From positions 3,423 to 67,422 of IMG/VR virus record IMGVR_UViG_3300010885_038456: DNA of 64,000 nt. One strand, 5' to 3'. Both the position numbers and the translations under genes were made by a program. The notes under the pieces were generated by a model. It searched no databases and was not told the DNA's origin. It saw only the letters and a program-made list of their open reading frames with translations. The stretch comes from a virus. Within the stretch, counting starts at the first letter, position 1; the number at the start of each line of letters is the position of its first letter. Positions 26,211 through 61,025 of this stretch are shown piece by piece.

Positions 26211-27103
26211 TGAAAAAACTAATAATAATTCTGTCACTAATTTCGATAACATTTGTGACAAACGCACAGTTACAGCAACCTGATACATTACAATTATCAC
26301 CAAAAGAACAATTTGATTTCAGTTCTAAGTGGAGTAATGTAGGAACAATGCAATCATACATAGATTTTCAAAAAGACGTGCTCTCATCATCAAACCTTTC
26401 AATTGGTATAGTTGGAAAGGCAATAACATCGACTTTGAATTTGGGATACAACAAATCATCTCAGAATGGTAAATGGGAACATATATTTTCAACATCAATA
26501 AATCCAAAATGGAAATATTATGGATTTGGATATGGGTTTGCTAAGAATACAGATAAAAGAATCTCAACAATTCAGGCATACTATTCAACTGACTTTGATT
26601 TTCAAAAAGATGTTTCATTATCAATTATAGATGTATTCAAAACAAAGAAGTTTGGTTCTTTTGGGTATAGTTTAATGGTAGAAAAAACATTTTGGGGAGA
26701 ATATGAAGGTGAATGGCAAGGAAAATACACAGTCGATGTAAATGGAAATTGGGTTAAGAATATATATCCAATCAACCCACCATCATCTCAATTAATATAT
26801 AGATGTATGCTAATGTACACTTATACATTCAAAACACATTTGGTTAATATTTCACCACAAATATTTGGTATGAGTGATTTTTATACTGTTTTTAAAAATG
26901 GAGGGACTAGTGATTATTCATATAAAAATGATTTCAATTTGGACTTATATTATGCTATATCTATGGATTGGAAAATAACTAAAAAATTCATTCTAAATAC
27001 AAATATCAGATTTAATAAAACATTTGATAAATTTGGTGAATCGGTTGGGTTTAAGAAAGTTAACCCAATAGTTTTTGCAATAGGAACAAACTTCAAATTT
27101 TAA
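26210..27103 (+). CDS. putative outer-membrane beta-barrel protein
   Basis: Signal peptide, alternating aromatic beta-strands, C-terminal Phe (AIGTNFKF). Confidence 0.65.
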   Translation: MKKLIIILSLISITFVTNAQLQQPDTLQLSPKEQFDFSSKWSNVGTMQSYIDFQKDVLSSSNLSIGIVGKAITSTLNLGYNKSSQNGKWEHIFSTSINPKWKYYGFGYGFAKNTDKRISTIQAYYSTDFDFQKDVSLSIIDVFKTKKFGSFGYSLMVEKTFWGEYEGEWQGKYTVDVNGNWVKNIYPINPPSSQLIYRCMLMYTYTFKTHLVNISPQIFGMSDFYTVFKNGGTSDYSYKNDFNLDLYYAISMDWKITKKFILNTNIRFNKTFDKFGESVGFKKVNPIVFAIGTNFKF

Positions 27104-27441
27104 TGAAAAAACTATTATTCATATTATTAGTATTGGCATCTTGTAAGAAGATGGACATACCTAAACCTATTATACCCATAGCTGACATTTTTAGTGTTAG
27201 CCAAAGTAGTGTAATGGATGGACAGGATATTCATTTCAATCTGCAAACCGCAGGTATTTATACACTAACATTGATAAATAAAACAAACAATCAAGTAGTT
27301 TCGAGAGAACGATTTACTGGTAAAGTTGGAGAAAATGCATTAAAACTTTATACAAACACATTATCGGTAAAAACTTTATATTTATTGCTAGAAAATAATA
27401 GTAAAGTTCAAATAGGAAAAACAATTGTAATAACTAACTAA
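27103..27441 (+). CDS. lipoprotein with small Ig-like domain
   Basis: Lipobox LAS-C; beta-rich domain. Confidence 0.7.
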   Translation: MKKLLFILLVLASCKKMDIPKPIIPIADIFSVSQSSVMDGQDIHFNLQTAGIYTLTLINKTNNQVVSRERFTGKVGENALKLYTNTLSVKTLYLLLENNSKVQIGKTIVITN

Positions 27442-27452
27442 ACTAAATAAAA

Positions 27453-27815
27453 ATGAAAAACGTATTTTTAATATTACTAATATCTATCATAATGGTAGGG
27501 TGCAGTAAAGATAATTTTGCACCAACAAACTCAAATTCCAATCTGAATATGACTACACCGGTAGGTATTAAGTTGGAAACGCCATTTGTAACCTCTGGAG
27601 TTGCAATGAATGTGAAAGCTTCTGAAGCTGGAGTAGTTACTATTAAAATGTTTGACATTGCTAATAGAGTAATATCAAAAGAAGAGATACATATTAACGT
27701 AGGAGATAATATCCTAAATGTATATACAACAATACTTCCATCATCGGCATACCGAATTGGAATATATAATTCAGTTGGTAATGAGTTGGGAATAACAGAT
27801 TTTAACAAACTATAA
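27453..27815 (+). CDS. lipoprotein with T9SS-CTD-like Ig domain
   Basis: Lipobox MVG-C; TIKMFDIANRVI...G.N...LPSSAYRI pattern resembles Por secretion tails. Confidence 0.65.
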   Translation: MKNVFLILLISIIMVGCSKDNFAPTNSNSNLNMTTPVGIKLETPFVTSGVAMNVKASEAGVVTIKMFDIANRVISKEEIHINVGDNILNVYTTILPSSAYRIGIYNSVGNELGITDFNKL

Positions 27816-27826
27816 ATTAAATTATT

Positions 27827-28174
27827 ATGGCAAAGGCAAAGAAAGAGCAAACGCCGGATGAGGCAATGGCTAAAAATGAAAAACACAACGATGGTACTGT
27901 AAGTGGGTTAAAGAAAACCATTATCGGTACAGTTGGTACGTTGGTAACCGCAGGTGGTGCGTTTTTAATGACTTATGTGAATACACCTAAGAACAATGAT
28001 AAACCTGTACAACCACAAAGTATTAATATCAACATGCCAGCTCCTGCACCTGCTGCAGAAACTAAAACTATAATCATCAAAGAAAAAAGTGGTGAGACCG
28101 GAGCAACCGGAGCAACTACACCAGTTAAGAAAAAAGACGGTGATGAATTTAAGAAGAAAGAACCATTGTGGTAA
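27827..28174 (+). CDS. single-TM membrane protein
   Basis: TM IIGTVGTLVTAGGAFLM then Pro/Ala/Thr-rich tail. Confidence 0.7.
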   Translation: MAKAKKEQTPDEAMAKNEKHNDGTVSGLKKTIIGTVGTLVTAGGAFLMTYVNTPKNNDKPVQPQSININMPAPAPAAETKTIIIKEKSGETGATGATTPVKKKDGDEFKKKEPLW

Positions 28175-31709: not shown

Positions 31710-31758
31710 TTGAAAAATATATACTTATACCTATACTAATTTAAACAGATATTTATTT

Positions 31759-32406
31759 ATGAAAAGAGTTTTTTTATCAATTGTTATGGTTCTATGGTTA
31801 TCTGTAACATCACTTATCGCACAAGATTTGGTTACAATTAAGCACACAAACTATACAACCACATTTTCCAAATCAAAGAAATACCCAGTAGAAGTAGAAT
31901 GGTGGATTACGAAAGCAAAGATTGCATGTACTAAACCATTGGCTAGAAAAGATAATTTTAAACCAGACCCACAATTAGTAGCAGAAACAAACATTGCGGC
32001 TGATTACGTTGGAAGTGGAACGGATAGAGGACACAATATGCCAGCAGCAGAGAATCTATGCCAGACACCTGCTGTGCAAGATGAGTGTTTTTACTTTACA
32101 AATATGACTCCCCAGTATCATTCACTCAACGCTGGAGATTGGAAATCCGTAGAGGTGTTGGAAAGACAATTAGCAAACGAAAACGATTCTGTACATGTAT
32201 GGTGTGGTTCAGTTGGAATTGCAAAAGTATTGGGAGCAAATAAGGTAGCAGTTCCTACACAATGTTGGAAAGTAATTTACATTGTAAAGAGCAAAGAATG
32301 GAAAGCATATATATTCAATAACACAACAGATAAACCAACTGGTATACCATCCCACATTGTACCCGTTGCAAATGTAGAAAAATTAACAGGGTTTAAATTC
32401 AAATAA
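31759..32406 (+). CDS. secreted DNA/RNA non-specific endonuclease (NucA/EndoG family)
   Basis: Signal peptide; DRGHNMPA, FYFTNMTPQ...LN...W..VE, VAVPTQCWKV. Confidence 0.9.
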   Translation: MKRVFLSIVMVLWLSVTSLIAQDLVTIKHTNYTTTFSKSKKYPVEVEWWITKAKIACTKPLARKDNFKPDPQLVAETNIAADYVGSGTDRGHNMPAAENLCQTPAVQDECFYFTNMTPQYHSLNAGDWKSVEVLERQLANENDSVHVWCGSVGIAKVLGANKVAVPTQCWKVIYIVKSKEWKAYIFNNTTDKPTGIPSHIVPVANVEKLTGFKFK

Positions 32407-38251: not shown

Positions 38252-38319
38252 GCGGGTTAAGTGTTACGGTAGCACAGAAACATTCCAGTTTCAGGAGAGA
38301 TTCGACTTCTCAACCCGCT
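38252..38319 (+). tRNA. tRNA-Gly(TCC)-like, strongly atypical (68 nt)
   Basis: GCGGGTT/AACCCGC acceptor, same D-arm as copy 1, irregular anticodon loop, 4-bp T-stem GAGA/TCTC. Confidence 0.6.
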
Positions 38320-54324: not shown

Positions 54325-54354
54325 AAAAAGGGAAGTTAATCACTTCCTTTTTTT
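54325..54354 (+). terminator. intrinsic terminator
   Basis: AAAGGGAAGT/ACTTCCTTTT stem followed by a T run. Confidence 0.75.
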
Positions 54355-54363
54355 ATGCCATAA

Positions 54364-54545
54364 TTTAACATTATTTAACTAAAATAATTTGGCGGTTAGA
54401 AAAATAATGAGTACCTTACCGTGTCAAACACTTCACTACTCACCATTAATATAATTTAACATCTTTTAACATTATTTAACTAAAATAATTTGGTAGTGTG
54501 TATATAATTTTGTATCTTTACTATGTAATCAATGAGAGATAAGTT
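54364..54545 (+). repeat. promoter-leader repeat, tandem copies 6a (partial) and 6b
   Basis: TTTAACATTATTTAACTAAAATAATTTGG twice. Confidence 0.8.
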
Positions 54546-56594
54546 ATGAATGTAAAAACTATGAGTAAAAAGGTTTTCAAACCACAAGCTTCTTCGTTCT
54601 GGACAGATGTTTGGGATTCGTATGAAGAAAATGATTCTTACACTCCAGAAGAATCGAAATCGATTAACCTAATGAAGTTGAGTGGTCATCGCAGGGCGAT
54701 AGCTAACTTTGTTAATATCCTAACCAACCAAAATATTCCGGTTGAGTTTAAACAATCGGGTGGGTCTTACACCGATGGTAAGAGTGTTACAATTTCTTCG
54801 GATGTTAAACCAGAAAAGTTTGATATCGCAGTTGGGTTGGCGTTGCACGAAGCTTCTCACATTAAACTTACCGATTTTCAGTTATTTCCAAACTACTATG
54901 TTCCAGATGAGTTATTCAAATTGGGACAATCTAAGGGATTGGATGTTAACTCCAATACAGGTCATCGGAGTACATATCAATTCAAAACCATCAAAGATTT
55001 AACGAATTGGGTTGAAGACCGTAGAATTGATACTTTTATCTTTAAGACCTGTCCAGGTTATAGAGATTACTATCGGGCTTTGTATAACGAATACTTCTAC
55101 GCTGATATCGTAGCAAAGGGATTGAAATCTGACGAGTATACCGATGAAACAATTGATTCGTATCTGTTCCGAATTATCAATATCAATAACGAATCTACTG
55201 ACCTTACTAAGTTGAAAGGTTTAAAATCGATATACAGAATATTGGATTTGGCTAATATAGAACGTTTAACTTCAACCACCGATTCACTCAAAGTTGCCGA
55301 AGCAATCTTTGATGTTATCCTTACTCACATTGACAACACCGATTGTGGTGAAGGTGATAATGATGAGGAAATCGAAGATGGTGACGGAGAAGCCGGTGAA
55401 GGTACTGACGGTGAAAGTAAAGAAGGCGATGGCACTAACGAAAGTGAAGGTGGTGCAGCTTCAAATGGTGGTGGTGAATCAGAAGAATCTGATAAATCAC
55501 CCAAAGGTAGTTCAGATAAACCACTTTCGGACGCAGCTAAAAAGCAATTGGCTAAAGCAATTGATAAACAAAAGCAGTTCATTAATGGTGATGTGAATAA
55601 GAAAGGAATTACCAAATCACAGGCATCAACACTTAACTCATTAGAACAATCTGGAACTGAAATGGTGACAGTAGGTGGACAGGTGATTGACGGACTTGGT
55701 AGAGCAATGGGACAGACTCAGGTGATGGTTTCAAAACGAATGACCGAATCACTAATGAAACAACAAACATTCCCATTCGCCTATACAAATTACAAAGGTG
55801 AATTGAATGACTATTGTGGTACAGAAGTTTCCAAAGGTATTCAATTGGGTACTATCTTAGGTAAACGTTTGGCAGTTCGTTCTGAAGAGCGTGAAACGAT
55901 TAACACCAGACAACAAAGTGGTAAAATTGATAAGAGATTAATCGCTGGTTTGGGATTTGGTTACGAAGCAGTATTCTCAACGAGAGATATTTCAAAGTTT
56001 AAAAAGGTAGCATTACATATTTCAATTGATGCAAGTGGTTCGATGGACGGAAGACGTTGGGACCAAACAATCGTTACAACGGTTGCCATTTGTAAGGCGG
56101 CATCTATGATTAGTAATTTAGATGTGCAAGTTTCTATTAGAGGTACTTGGAATGATAGTGGTTCTAAACCATACGTTGTTATCGCTTATGATTCTAAGAT
56201 TGACAAATTTGAAAAGGTTAAACGTTTATTTCCATCACTAAGAGCTAGTGGTACAACACCTGAAGGACTTTGTTACGAAGCAATTATGAATCACTTTATA
56301 GAATCTTCCAGAGATACTGAATCGTACTTTGTTAATATATGTGATGGTGAACCAAACTGGGAAGGTAATGGTTTTTATTACACCGGCCAAATCGCTTTGA
56401 ATCACACAAAATTAATGGTTAATAAGATACGTTCGAAAGGTATAAAGGTTCTAAGTTATTTCGTAGATGGTAATTCATCAGGGCATTCACAAGACCGTTT
56501 CAAAGTAATGTATGGCGATTCAAGCAGATTCGTAGATATCAACAATATCGTACCAATTACCAAAACGTTAAACGAACTTTTCCTAACTAGATAA
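54546..56594 (+). CDS. VWA-domain protein with N-terminal HExxH domain and acidic linker (CobT/MoxR-partner type)
   Basis: YTDG...LHEASH...EDRRID; G/E/D/S linker; SIDASGSM (MIDAS), GTTPEG, ICDGEP. Confidence 0.88.
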   Translation: MNVKTMSKKVFKPQASSFWTDVWDSYEENDSYTPEESKSINLMKLSGHRRAIANFVNILTNQNIPVEFKQSGGSYTDGKSVTISSDVKPEKFDIAVGLALHEASHIKLTDFQLFPNYYVPDELFKLGQSKGLDVNSNTGHRSTYQFKTIKDLTNWVEDRRIDTFIFKTCPGYRDYYRALYNEYFYADIVAKGLKSDEYTDETIDSYLFRIININNESTDLTKLKGLKSIYRILDLANIERLTSTTDSLKVAEAIFDVILTHIDNTDCGEGDNDEEIEDGDGEAGEGTDGESKEGDGTNESEGGAASNGGGESEESDKSPKGSSDKPLSDAAKKQLAKAIDKQKQFINGDVNKKGITKSQASTLNSLEQSGTEMVTVGGQVIDGLGRAMGQTQVMVSKRMTESLMKQQTFPFAYTNYKGELNDYCGTEVSKGIQLGTILGKRLAVRSEERETINTRQQSGKIDKRLIAGLGFGYEAVFSTRDISKFKKVALHISIDASGSMDGRRWDQTIVTTVAICKAASMISNLDVQVSIRGTWNDSGSKPYVVIAYDSKIDKFEKVKRLFPSLRASGTTPEGLCYEAIMNHFIESSRDTESYFVNICDGEPNWEGNGFYYTGQIALNHTKLMVNKIRSKGIKVLSYFVDGNSSGHSQDRFKVMYGDSSRFVDINNIVPITKTLNELFLTR

Positions 56595-57718: not shown

Positions 57719-57780
57719 GTACATTCGTAGCAATAGTACATTCGTAGCAATAGTACATTCGTAGCAATAGTACATTCGTA
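57719..57780. repeat. tandem 17-mer GTACATTCGTAGCAATA x3.6
   Basis: Exact units at 57719, 57736, 57753 and a partial unit at 57770. Confidence 0.95.
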
Positions 57781-58667: not shown

Positions 58668-58850
58668 CGGAATATTAACAGGTTAGATAATTCAGCAGTG
58701 AATATTCCATTAGCTAAGCCGTGATGATGATGAGTATGTATTATCAAATTGTAAGTAAAACACACCAATCGCTTACACTTTAGTTAGTGTATCACATACG
58801 AGACGTAACAGATTGTAAGTAAAACACCACATTCGCTATCAATTTGATAT

Positions 58851-58960
58851 TTTAACATAATTTAACATTGTTTAACACTTCAAATTTGGCAGTCTAAGTA
58901 ATAATGATTACCTTTAGGTATTGAGTTGAGAGAGTTATTAATCACTAAAAACAAACAGTT
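58851..58960 (+). repeat. promoter-leader repeat, copy 8
   Basis: (TTTAAC)x3, TTTGG, TACCTTTAGGTATTGAGTTGAGAGAGTTA. Confidence 0.85.
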
Positions 58961-60178
58961 ATGAGTAAGAAAGAAATTAATGGTTCAGTAGGTTACACCA
59001 ATGAAATCTACAAAGTGGAATTAATCAGTAATCGTTACCAATTGGTAGACACTGATGGTAAGGTAGTCCTGAATGGTAATAAGATAACCGGTTCGGGCCA
59101 TCGTAAGCAGGCATTCGAACGGGGATTGGCAATTCGGGCCTATGTGAATGGTAGTAATACCAGTTATCGTAAAGTACCTATTGAGCAGTACAACCTAATC
59201 GCTAAACCACTTCATACGGATACAGCAGAGACGGTTGTTGAGAACCCATCGGAACACATTGATGTTAAGGAGTTTATACATAAGGAAGGTATTAAGTTAA
59301 AACCTAAGAATCTCCTAATGACTGAACTAAAATGGAAATACCTCATTCGTTCCGCAGTACGTGGTAGGAATATTATGATGACAGGACCGGCAGGTAGTGG
59401 AAAGACAATGGCGGCTAAAGCATTAGTTGAGGCGTTGAACAGACCGTACTTCTACTTCAACTTAGGTTCAACACAAGACCCGAGGGCAACGTTCATTGGT
59501 AATACCCACTTCAATAAGGAGACCGGTACTTACTTCTCAGAATCTACCTTTGTTAAGGCGATTAAAACACCATACGCAGTTATCCTATTGGATGAGTTGA
59601 GTAGAGCACACCCTGAGGCTTGGAACATTCTAATGAGTGTTATCGACCAGACACAGAGATACTTACGATTGGATGAGGCAGAAGGTTCACCTATTGTGAA
59701 TGTGGCTGAAGGAGTTACTTTCATCGCTACGGCTAACATCGGTAATGAGTTCACCTCAACGAGAGTATTAGATAGGGCATTAGTTGACCGATTCGTTACC
59801 ATAGAGGTTGATGTTCTGAACGCTGAGCAGGAGTATGAGTTACTTCAAATGTTATATCCACAAGCTGATAGTGATGATTTAAAGGCAGTTGCGGAGATTG
59901 TATCACATACCAGAGACCAAATCAAATCGGACGCCGGTAAGATAACAACCGCAGTATCGACCAGAACATCGGTTGAAATGGCTGGGTTACTCTATGATGG
60001 GTTCACTCTAATCGAATCCGCTGAAGTGGCAATCTTCCCTATGTACTCCACAGATGGTGGCTTGGACTCGGAAAGGACATATATTAAACAATTGGTTCAG
60101 AAGTATATGAAAGACGAAAGTGGTGAGAAGTTATTCACCCTCGATCGAGACAAAGAAGATACTTCAATCAATTGGTAA
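58961..60178 (+). CDS. MoxR-family AAA+ ATPase (CbbQ/NirQ/CobS-like)
   Basis: Walker A GPAGSGKT, Walker B ILLDE, IATANIG, LDRALVDRF, VSTR. Confidence 0.9.
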   Translation: MSKKEINGSVGYTNEIYKVELISNRYQLVDTDGKVVLNGNKITGSGHRKQAFERGLAIRAYVNGSNTSYRKVPIEQYNLIAKPLHTDTAETVVENPSEHIDVKEFIHKEGIKLKPKNLLMTELKWKYLIRSAVRGRNIMMTGPAGSGKTMAAKALVEALNRPYFYFNLGSTQDPRATFIGNTHFNKETGTYFSESTFVKAIKTPYAVILLDELSRAHPEAWNILMSVIDQTQRYLRLDEAEGSPIVNVAEGVTFIATANIGNEFTSTRVLDRALVDRFVTIEVDVLNAEQEYELLQMLYPQADSDDLKAVAEIVSHTRDQIKSDAGKITTAVSTRTSVEMAGLLYDGFTLIESAEVAIFPMYSTDGGLDSERTYIKQLVQKYMKDESGEKLFTLDRDKEDTSINW

Positions 60179-60189
60179 TAAGGCATATA

Positions 60190-60366
60190 GGGTATAGTAT
60201 GGTAACTCTCTCAATATAACTCCCATACATACCCACATTAGGTAGGCGGAGGATAGGCACTCTTTTCATAACGGATGGCCAATGACCCCTACCTTACTGA
60301 ATTTTTCATAGTTTTAGATTTAGTTTTTTACAAAGAATGCACCCGCTCATTTAGAGTGGGTGTTTT
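60190..60366 (+). ncRNA. candidate structured antisense RNA (two hairpins, an antisense tract and a terminator)
   Basis: Stems GGGTAT-A-GTATGG/CCATAC-ATACCC and AGGTAGG/CCTACCT; loops complementary to leader and start-codon sequences. Confidence 0.5.
60339..60366 (+). terminator. intrinsic terminator
   Basis: GCACCCGCTC/GAGTGGGTGT stem followed by TTT. Confidence 0.7.
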
Positions 60367-61025
60367 CACGTTGCCTTACGGATTACAAATGTAATTTACA
60401 AATGTAACTAATTGACTACCAACCGCATCTGACCGGCATCGGACTAACCTAATAATAAAACAGCTAACACTAAGACAAGTACACACAATGGGTAAGTATA
60501 AGCATACCAGAGTATTACATAGGATATACAACACATAGAGTATAACGTTGGGATAACACTCAGTACCCACAGACCGGTGGACTGAATTTCATGTTACTAT
60601 GGGTAGCGGCGGGTGCTGCAAGGGGGCTCGGACCTGTTAAAATATCGAGGTCAGGTTTTTTCGCTATGGAAACGTTTTTTGATAGTAGGTGTGACACACC
60701 AGATACGCAGTATAGTAATACGTTGGTTACCCATCCGTACAAAGTACATCCGTACAAAGTACATCCATAATGAATTTGATTCGTAGCAATAGTACATTCA
60801 GCTAGATATGGATTACTGTAACCTACATTACTGTAATGGGCGTTACAATAAAACCTACCATATATGAGAGGGGGAAATGATTCGTTTTCAGAAAATTTTA
60901 ACTATACTGCGTATTTGATAGTATTTAGTAATGTGGAATATTTATTGTATATTTGTACAACTGTACGAAGGTACTAATGTACGAAGGTACTATTGCTACG
61001 AATGATAACTAATAAGATAAGAGAT

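What the first reader, a model, noticed from the sequence alone, without database searches (positions are those of the whole stretch)
60190..60366. Candidate multi-target antisense RNA against the phage's own early leader and start-codon regions
Seen in the sequence: three elements lie between the AAA+ stop and a terminator. (i) A 12-bp hairpin whose loop begins TAACTCTCTCAA (60203-60214). This is the exact reverse complement of TTGAGAGAGTTA in repeat copy 8 (58926-58937), and it covers the AGAGAGTT(A) box shared by most promoter-leader repeats. (ii) A second hairpin containing ACTCTTTTCATAAC, i.e. anti-GTTATGAAAAGAGT. 13 nt of it match the start of the secreted nuclease gene (31757-31769), and the core matches several GTTATGAAAA starts. 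(iii) AATTTTTCATAGTTTTAGATTTAGTTTTTT, i.e. anti-AAAAAACTAAATCTAAAACTATGAAAAATT, which reads like a Bacteroidota translation-initiation region. Inference: a 3'-UTR-derived guide array that shuts down early cassettes and/or host mRNAs by covering leaders and AUGs, which would suit a host without Shine-Dalgarno sites. I know of no described system of this form.
Basis: partly seen in the sequence, partly recalled or inferred. Interest (0 to 1): 0.85.

Follow-up and report, generated by a model that had tools for sequence, protein, structure and literature searches.

The report
Phage 3'UTR mirroring its own leader
The non-coding tail behind a phage ATPase gene carries a hairpin whose loop mirrors that gene's own leader, a pairing kept with different letters in dozens of related phages, so the message probably folds back on itself to control its own use; a neighbouring stretch resembles a known Bacteroides small RNA.

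Summary
Window 60179-60372 is a strongly folded + strand 3'UTR (z -4.47). It holds three patches antisense to the phage's own 5' signals. It is the densest such spot in the 64 kb for two of three word sizes.

- Patch 1 (hairpin-1 loop) pairs best with the AAA+ gene's own leader. In 63 dereplicated related phages this gene's 5' region and 3' flank are complementary far above controls, using about 21 different arm sequences. The word is usually unique locally. This fits self-regulation of one mRNA better than a multi-target array.
- Patch 3 plus the terminator (60299-60370) is a below-threshold match to the Bacteroides FopS/GibS small RNAs. It is antisense to a generic Bacteroidota start region. 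This is suggestive only.
- Patch 2 (hairpin 2) is no better than coding-region controls and varies between natural strains.

There is no RNA evidence, and RNA-level versus DNA-level action is undecided. Earlier notes of this scan describe similar anti-leader 3' hairpins in other lake phages. I did not check those notes.

The parts
58885..58916 (+). Promoter of the AAA+ unit (repeat copy 58851-58934): TTTG at 58885-88 and a variant -7 box TACCTTTA at 58909-16
   Evidence: Repeat family D1, 10 copies. Coordinates were counted from the printed copy, and the leaders are listed. Promoter function is inferred from the Bacteroidota consensus, which I recalled.
58926..58937 (+). 5' arm: leader box TTGAGAGAGTTA, 24-35 nt before the ATG and near the predicted 5' end of the mRNA
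   Evidence: It occurs once in 64 kb, and its reverse complement occurs once, at 60203. It is the best duplex partner of the hairpin-1 loop, at -21.8 kcal/mol.
58961..60178 (+). AAA+ ATPase gene (405 aa) of AAA_5 / MoxR-CobS type
   Evidence: Pfam AAA_5 at 1.3e-18 and phrog_249 at 2.9e-29. A CobT-like partner lies at 54546-56594 (phrog_5298).
60190..60234 (+). Hairpin 1: a 12-bp stem with a 20-nt loop (60203-60222). The loop starts with the 3' arm TAACTCTCTCAA
   Evidence: Fold. A hairpin at the same position, with a covarying stem, occurs in 11 relatives. No difference is listed in three natural variant strains.
60240..60294 (+). Hairpin 2: GC-rich, with the apical loop UUUCAUAAC
   Evidence: Fold. 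It is not start-site-specific. It carries all 8 differences listed for the 3'UTR in strains X3, X5 and X9. No homologue was found in relatives.
60299..60334 (+). Element iii: a single-stranded U-rich stretch antisense to a start region (...CUAUGAAAAAUUCAG), followed by a spacer
   Evidence: The Rfam alignment to FopS/GibS begins at 60299. By the start-site matrix it ranks 2 of 994. Its best in-window partner is the start region of gene 58210, at -20.9 kcal/mol. No difference is listed in the variants.
60340..60366 (+). Intrinsic terminator: CACCCGCTC, ATTTA, GAGTGGGTG, then TTTT
   Evidence: Sequence and fold. It forms the 3' hairpin of the FopS-like match.

Best explanation
The region is the structured 3'UTR of a single-gene mRNA for a MoxR/CobS-like AAA+ ATPase. 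Its first hairpin shows, in its loop, a sequence complementary to the mRNA's own 5' leader.

I propose that the 3' end pairs with the 5' end of the same message. This could happen within one molecule (a fold-back, as in icaR or hbs) or through a released 3' fragment (as in OppZ/CarZ). Either way it would control ribosome access or 5'-end stability, so the gene limits its own expression.

The last 72 nt (anti-start seed plus terminator) may also work as a FopS-like small RNA on start regions. Candidates are phage gene 58210 and host exported-protein mRNAs.

Shown: the complementarity, its conservation with changing sequence, and its specificity for this gene. Inferred: that it acts at the RNA level, and what the outcome is.
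For: Window:
- The hairpin-1 loop pairs best with its own leader (-21.8 kcal/mol), and the next 7 partners are sister leaders.
- Folding the leader together with the 3'UTR gives -67.6 kcal/mol, against -58.3 and -1.4 folded apart.
- Of 117 genes, only this one has an own 5'/3' complement of 10 nt or more. The all-gene mean is 5.79 for own pairs and 5.80 for cross pairs.

Relatives (142 loci, 63 after dereplication):
- Longest own complement of 10 nt or more in 18/63, against 57/3906 cross-locus pairs. At 9 nt or more, 27/63 against 3.6%. Permutation test 0/2000. The direct-repeat control averages 5.75.
- Duplex energy is -15.5 kcal/mol for own pairs and -10.6 for cross pairs, p=2.8e-11.
- Same-locus controls: other genes' start regions average 5.77 (n=440), and neighbouring genes' own 5'/3' pairs average 5.73 (n=437).
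- About 21 different arm sequences are used. In 23 of the 27 loci with seeds of 9 nt or more, the 3' arm begins within 16 nt of the stop codon. Many 5' arms cover the ATG.
- The arm word is unique on the held + strand in 23/27 loci.
- In a 64.7-kb relative, GAGTTATGAG occurs once forward, at the gene's own start, and twice reversed, both in its own 3' loop.
- Hairpin 1 is unchanged in three natural variant strains, while the coding tail and hairpin 2 differ.
Against: - No RNA run holds the phage, so the transcript ends and the pairing itself are unproven.
- G-U against A-C mismatches beside the seeds are 10 against 8 of 79 (not significant). The + strand against - strand energy gap is also not significant (p=0.11). 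A DNA-level inverted repeat is therefore not excluded.
- 24 of 63 loci have less than 8 nt of complement, and the closest 69%-identity clade (L004, L263) has none.
- In the window the 5' arm lies at -35 to -24, outside a typical ribosome footprint.
- Its 9-nt core is shared by five other leaders, so action in trans on the whole class is also possible.
- The FopS/GibS match is below threshold and not significant over the whole window (E 8.3 and 2.3).
Confidence: 0.55

Rival explanations
1. One reading: the tail is, or releases, a multi-seed antisense RNA. It would act in trans to shut the whole promoter-leader class (loop 1), GUUAUGA-type starts (loop 2), and MKK/MKN-type starts of phage or host mRNAs (element iii).
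For: - Three separate patches are antisense to recurrent 5' words, and the window ranks first at k=9 and k=7.
- The top 8 partners of loop 1 are all class leaders.
- Element iii reaches 37 start regions at -10 kcal/mol or better, against 23.5 +/- 5.7 for shuffles (2/100 as good). Its best partner is gene 58210.
- The FopS/GibS likeness.
- The target 20-mer is a true start region in 51 of 59 genome hits, 48 of them Bacteroidota by record title.
- Unchecked notes of this scan describe similar anti-leader 3' hairpins in other lake phages.
Against: - In relatives the conserved partner is the gene's own, locally unique 5' word, and neighbouring start regions are not matched.
- Loop 2 is no better than coding controls and varies in nature.
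- The leaders are near-copies of each other, so 8 hits amount to about one independent event.
- There are no RNA data.
Confidence: 0.22
2. A DNA-level inverted repeat flanks the open reading frame, for example cassette boundaries, a recombination site, or a cruciform or protein-binding site. No RNA pairing would be involved.
For: The complementarity is symmetric. There is no excess of G-U pairs, and the minus-strand energies are also better than cross pairs (-14.1 against -9.9). The gene is a self-contained unit whose downstream neighbour changes between close relatives.
Against: - The arm sequences differ between clades (about 21 types), unlike the ends recognised by a recombinase.
- The arms overlap the start and stop codons and lie between the promoter and the terminator.
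- In two clades the 3' arm sits in the loop of a conserved RNA-type hairpin.
Confidence: 0.1
3. Nothing special: an ordinary terminator region whose AT-rich hairpins happen to match AT-rich leaders.
For: 12-13-nt complements to irrelevant sites also occur. Loop 1 is not enriched against all start regions compared with shuffles (22 against 18.5, with 29/100 shuffles as good). The Rfam hits are at noise level over the whole window.
Against: The family-wide own-pair signal (0/2000 permutations), the within-locus controls, and the top rank in an unbiased scan.
Confidence: 0.08
4. The antisense ATG contexts start real minus-strand mini-genes: a 33-aa frame (60269 down to 60168) and a 6-aa frame from 60309.
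For: The ATG at 60309 has a good start context, rank 2 of 994.
Against: - Nearly every long frame in the window is on the + strand.
- The ATG at 60269 ranks 407 of 994.
- All 4 natural substitutions in codons 2-8 change the amino acid (my reading).
- Relatives have no homologue.
- The other frame has only 6 codons.
Confidence: 0.03

Closest known systems
5'UTR-3'UTR pairing within one bacterial mRNA: icaR (S. aureus) and hbs (B. subtilis). Source: review PMC7821165, passages read.
   Same: A 3'UTR stretch is complementary to the ribosome-binding or 5' region of its own message. In icaR this blocks initiation and creates an RNase III site. In hbs a 14-nt pairing protects the 5'UTR from RNase Y.
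   Different: Here it is a phage gene, in a host phylum without Shine-Dalgarno use. The pairing is kept across dozens of phages with changing sequence. In this window the arm sits in a hairpin loop and targets the far 5' leader. Nothing has been shown experimentally.
Self-regulating 3'UTR-derived sRNAs OppZ and CarZ of Vibrio cholerae (PMC7398697). I saw the title and the start of the abstract. Details are recalled.
   Same: A seed just upstream of the parent mRNA's terminator pairs with a start region of the same transcription unit, giving negative feedback.
   Different: Those sRNAs need RNase E processing and Hfq. Whether Bacteroidota lack Hfq is my recollection. No processing site is known here.
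FopS family and GibS of Bacteroides thetaiotaomicron (Rfam RF04319 and RF04182; PMC11697453, passages read).
   Same: A 5' single-stranded seed antisense to a start region, a spacer, and a terminator hairpin in about 70 nt. 20 of the first 24 seed positions are identical to the FopS consensus (my count). One FopS member is 3'UTR-derived. The authors note a copy in a phage.
   Different: The scores are far below the gathering cut-offs (26.6 against 56, and 31.2 against 115). No canonical promoter lies in front. The phage is from fresh water and its host is unknown. The likeness may be convergence on the same generic start region.
hok mRNA fold-back inhibition (fbi/tac) of plasmid R1. Recalled; I saw only one listing containing the phrase.
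   Same: The 3' end pairs with the 5' end of the full-length mRNA and keeps it translationally inert.
   Different: That is a toxin-antitoxin system, activated by 3' trimming. There is no evidence for either feature here.

Membership tests
mRNAs with 5'UTR-3'UTR pairing (icaR/hbs type) | Complementary stretches in the 5' region and the 3'UTR of the same gene, above chance | tested here: met
   12 nt in the window and the only such gene of 117. Across the family, own pairs exceed cross pairs with 0/2000 permutations as good. Energies differ at p=2.8e-11.
mRNAs with 5'UTR-3'UTR pairing (icaR/hbs type) | Both arms lie on one transcript | tested here: inconclusive
   A promoter-like repeat lies upstream and a terminator downstream, judged by sequence only. 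No RNA-holding run is listed.
mRNAs with 5'UTR-3'UTR pairing (icaR/hbs type) | Pairing shown to change translation or stability | not testable with these tools
   This needs reporters with compensatory mutations, or structure probing.
FopS / GibS sRNAs (RF04319, RF04182) | Reaches the Rfam gathering score | tested here: not met
   26.6 bits against 56, and 31.2 bits against 115. Whole-window E values are 8.3 and 2.3.
FopS / GibS sRNAs (RF04319, RF04182) | R1/R1' seed at the 5' end, followed by a terminator hairpin | tested here: met
   The alignment covers model positions 1-71 of 71, starting at 60299. 20 of 24 seed positions are identical, followed by a hairpin and a U run.
FopS / GibS sRNAs (RF04319, RF04182) | Own promoter directly upstream (13 of the 14 FopS members are not 3'UTR-derived) | tested here: not met
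   Only TACCTTAC lies 4 nt upstream, with no TTTG -33 box, and it forms the 3' arm of hairpin 2. True phage- or prophage-borne copies show TTTG...TAnnTTTG. The 3'UTR-derived route (FopS-14) remains open.
FopS / GibS sRNAs (RF04319, RF04182) | Represses SusC-like start regions and binds RbpB | not testable with these tools
   The host is unknown. The target 20-mer heads diverse exported-protein genes, not specifically susC.
Self-regulating 3'UTR-derived sRNAs (OppZ/CarZ type) | A seed upstream of the parent terminator, complementary to a start region or leader of the parent unit | tested here: met
Self-regulating 3'UTR-derived sRNAs (OppZ/CarZ type) | A stable processed 3' fragment | not testable with these tools
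   No RNA data.

The most novel reading that the evidence does not exclude
The 190-nt tail is released as a three-seed phage RNA that acts in trans.
- Loop 1 silences the whole promoter-leader class, including its own gene.
- Loop 2 silences GUUAUGA-type starts.
- The FopS-like seed silences MKK/MKN-type starts, including host exported or outer-membrane protein mRNAs.

This would be a phage-borne multi-seed translational silencer, built for a host phylum that does not use Shine-Dalgarno pairing. It would be one example of a wider class of anti-leader 3' hairpins in lake phages.
Probability: 0.18. Interest if true: 0.8.

Novelty: new variant of a known kind. Interest (0 to 1): 0.6.

Why it matters
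Pairing between the two ends of a bacterial mRNA is known from only a handful of single-species cases. The review I read names icaR, hbs and RNAIII.

Here one phage gene family keeps such pairing through about 21 different sequence solutions, in phages whose start regions do and do not carry GAGG-type ribosome sites. That gives a natural covariation series. It also gives a ready set of compensatory variants for testing how end-to-end pairing controls translation or decay.

If the FopS-like part is real, phages outside the gut would be shown to carry anti-start-region RNAs of the kind Bacteroides uses on its own transporters. My one literature search for a phage case found nothing relevant, but that is a thin search.

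Tried and rejected
- Sequence homology of the 3'UTR in 80 related loci. blastn and nhmmer found nothing significant (best E 0.076). Only the principle and hairpin 1 are shared, not hairpin 2 or element iii.
- Rfam at gathering thresholds finds tRNAs only.
- Nested model, in which the three genes 58210, 58443 and 58961 are mirrored by element iii, hairpin 2 and hairpin 1. The outer and inner pairs each rank first of 117. The middle pair ranks only 11 to 47 of 117, so I dropped the model.
- G-U wobble test for RNA-level against DNA-level action. Inconclusive.
- Cultured relatives. Only Microcystis phage Mel-JY01 and one uncultured 484-kb record match, at 52% and 49% identity. Neither gives clear 5'/3' pairing. 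The -15.1 kcal/mol in Mel-JY01 involves terminator arms, and the other record gives -6.9.
- RNA evidence. No RNA holder is listed among the 22 runs. The laid runs are DNA contigs and say nothing about transcripts. That call hides 83 rows, so 'no difference listed' in hairpin 1 and element iii rests on the visible rows (33 of 36 for X5).
- A promoter for element iii. None is convincing.
- Supplementary Fig. 5a of PMC11697453 (the phage copy of FopS) could not be seen.
- The scan's earlier notes on other phages were read as leads and not checked.

Full report
**Context.**
- The window is part of a 67.4-kb viral contig estimated at 29% complete.
- Nearly every long frame is on the + strand.
- A promoter-leader repeat heads about ten gene units. 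It has TTTAAC boxes, TTTGG, a variant -7 box TAyCTTTA and the leader UAUUGAGUUnAGAGAGUUAUUAAU...GUUAUG.
- The gene ending at 60178 is an AAA_5 (MoxR/CobS-like) ATPase. A CobT-like gene lies upstream and thymidylate synthase downstream.
- DNA runs that hold the stretch are freshwater and lake metagenomes from 13 studies.

**Observation.**
- The quoted strings and matches are exact.
- The + strand folds into hairpin 1 (60190-60234), hairpin 2 (60240-60294), a weak AU pairing over element iii, and a terminator (60340-60366).
- The fold energy is -58.3 kcal/mol, with z -4.47 and 0/200 shuffles as good. The minus strand folds less well (z -2.47).
- Raw 12-13-nt complements are expected by chance in 64 kb. 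The same 194 nt also matches irrelevant sites.
- The targets, however, are not random.
  - The reverse complements of AGAGAGTTA (6 forward copies) and GTTATGAAAA (4 forward copies, all at predicted starts) each occur once on the + strand, both in this region.
  - The ATG context at 60309 ranks 2 of 994 minus-strand ATGs by the phage's own start matrix.
- In an unbiased scan, this 150-nt window ranks first for cover by reverse complements of recurrent 5' words at k=9 and k=7. At k=8 it has 30 covered bases against a maximum of 36.

**Element i.**
- The loop of hairpin 1 pairs best with the AAA+ gene's own leader (-21.8 kcal/mol). The next seven partners are the sister leaders.
- Of the 117 genes in the window, only this one has an own 5'/3' complement of 10 nt or more.
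- I fetched 160 loci with homologues of the ATPase.
- The closest clade has 70-80% protein identity and 11 loci. Directly after the stop codon it has a hairpin at the same position as hairpin 1. The stem is GGGGYGG/CCRCCCC, with one compensatory change.
- That clade's loop contains CUCAUAACUC twice. This is antisense to the gene's own start region, GAGUUAUGAG.
- In one such 64.7-kb contig the 10-mer occurs once forward, at that start, and twice reversed, both in that loop.

**Family-wide test.**
- 142 loci had both flanks, leaving 63 after dereplication.
- The longest exact complement between -45..+10 and stop..+40 averages 8.19 nt for own pairs and 5.82 for cross-locus pairs.
- Complements of 10 nt or more occur in 18/63 own pairs against 57/3906 cross pairs. 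The permutation test gives 0/2000. Direct repeats average 5.75.
- Duplex energies are -15.5 against -10.6 kcal/mol, p=2.8e-11.
- Within the same loci, other genes' start regions do not match the AAA+ 3' flank (mean 5.77, n=440). Neighbouring genes lack own 5'/3' complements (mean 5.73, n=437). The own start is strictly the best partner in 32/63 loci.
- The 27 loci with seeds of 9 nt or more use about 21 different words. In 23 of them the 3' arm begins within 16 nt of the stop codon. Many 5' arms cover the ATG, and in some clades they cover a GAGG ribosome site.
- The word is unique on the held + strand in 23/27 loci.
- Against: 24/63 loci have less than 8 nt of complement, and one near clade has none.

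**RNA or DNA?** Mismatches beside the seeds show no G-U excess (10 against 8 A-C of 79). The strand asymmetry in energy is not significant (p=0.11). I favour RNA for three reasons:
- the arms vary in sequence;
- they overlap the start and stop codons and lie between promoter and terminator;
- in two clades they are displayed in a hairpin loop.

This remains an inference.

**Element ii.** Hairpin 2 is not start-site-specific and has no homologue in relatives. It carries all 8 differences listed for the 3'UTR in three natural strains. Hairpin 1 and element iii plus the terminator show none (with 83 rows hidden).

**Element iii.**
- In E-value mode, Rfam aligns 60299-60370 end to end with FopS (26.6 bits) and 60299-60415 with GibS (31.2 bits). 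Both are far below threshold.
- Over the whole window the E values are 8.3 and 2.3, among five unrelated noise hits.
- 20 of the first 24 seed positions are identical to the FopS consensus.
- FopS sRNAs block the start regions of SusC-like mRNAs, one member is 3'UTR-derived, and the authors mention a phage copy.
- The seed pattern is common in viral contigs, with at least 111 loci, mostly carrying their own promoter.
- The target 20-mer has 59 genome hits. 48 are Bacteroidota by record title. In 51 of the 59 it heads a frame of 100 aa or more, or one that runs off the held DNA. Most of these start MKK or MKN followed by a hydrophobic stretch.
- In the window its best partner is the start of gene 58210 (-20.9 kcal/mol). 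Its own gene's start gives only -8.4.
- I rate a real anti-start function at roughly 40%.

**Verdict.**
- The best-supported reading is self-regulation of the AAA+ mRNA by 5'-3' pairing. This is a new, phage-borne and strongly covarying variant of a known kind. A possible FopS-like module sits beside it.
- Unchecked notes of this scan report similar anti-leader 3' hairpins in other lake phages. This raised my weight for action in trans.

Noticed in passing
window 27051-27250: This is the second-ranked 150-nt window for reverse complements of recurrent 5' words. Minus-strand start-like ATGs lie at 27179 and 27122, inside + strand coding sequence and near a minus-strand frame at 27443-27886. It may be a real minus-strand gene start.
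   Followed up: no
window 60110-60151: The C-terminal tail of the AAA+ gene is hypervariable in natural strains: 10 substitutions plus a 3-nt deletion in 42 nt in X5 and X9. The adjacent hairpin 1 is unchanged.
   Followed up: partly
window 58742-58845: Two copies of a 40-nt repeat (80% alike) containing a GTAAG..CTTAC hairpin lie between gene 58443 and the AAA+ promoter. It is unclear whether they terminate the upstream unit.
   Followed up: partly
window 60298: The natural variant T>C makes TACCTTACCG, identical to the -7-like box of the degenerate promoter copy at 54354-54437. The meaning is unknown.
   Followed up: no
window 38252-38291: A third copy of the tRNA-Gly-like 5' half lies between the two tRNA-Gly genes that ARAGORN calls.
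   Followed up: no
L083-L192 (viral contigs): FopS-type sRNA genes with canonical TTTG...TAnnTTTG promoters and terminators are very common in IMG/VR viral contigs.
   Followed up: partly
window 57719-57780 and 60775-60802: A 17-nt unit repeated 3.6 times has a single 79% copy in the non-coding region downstream of the finding.
   Followed up: no
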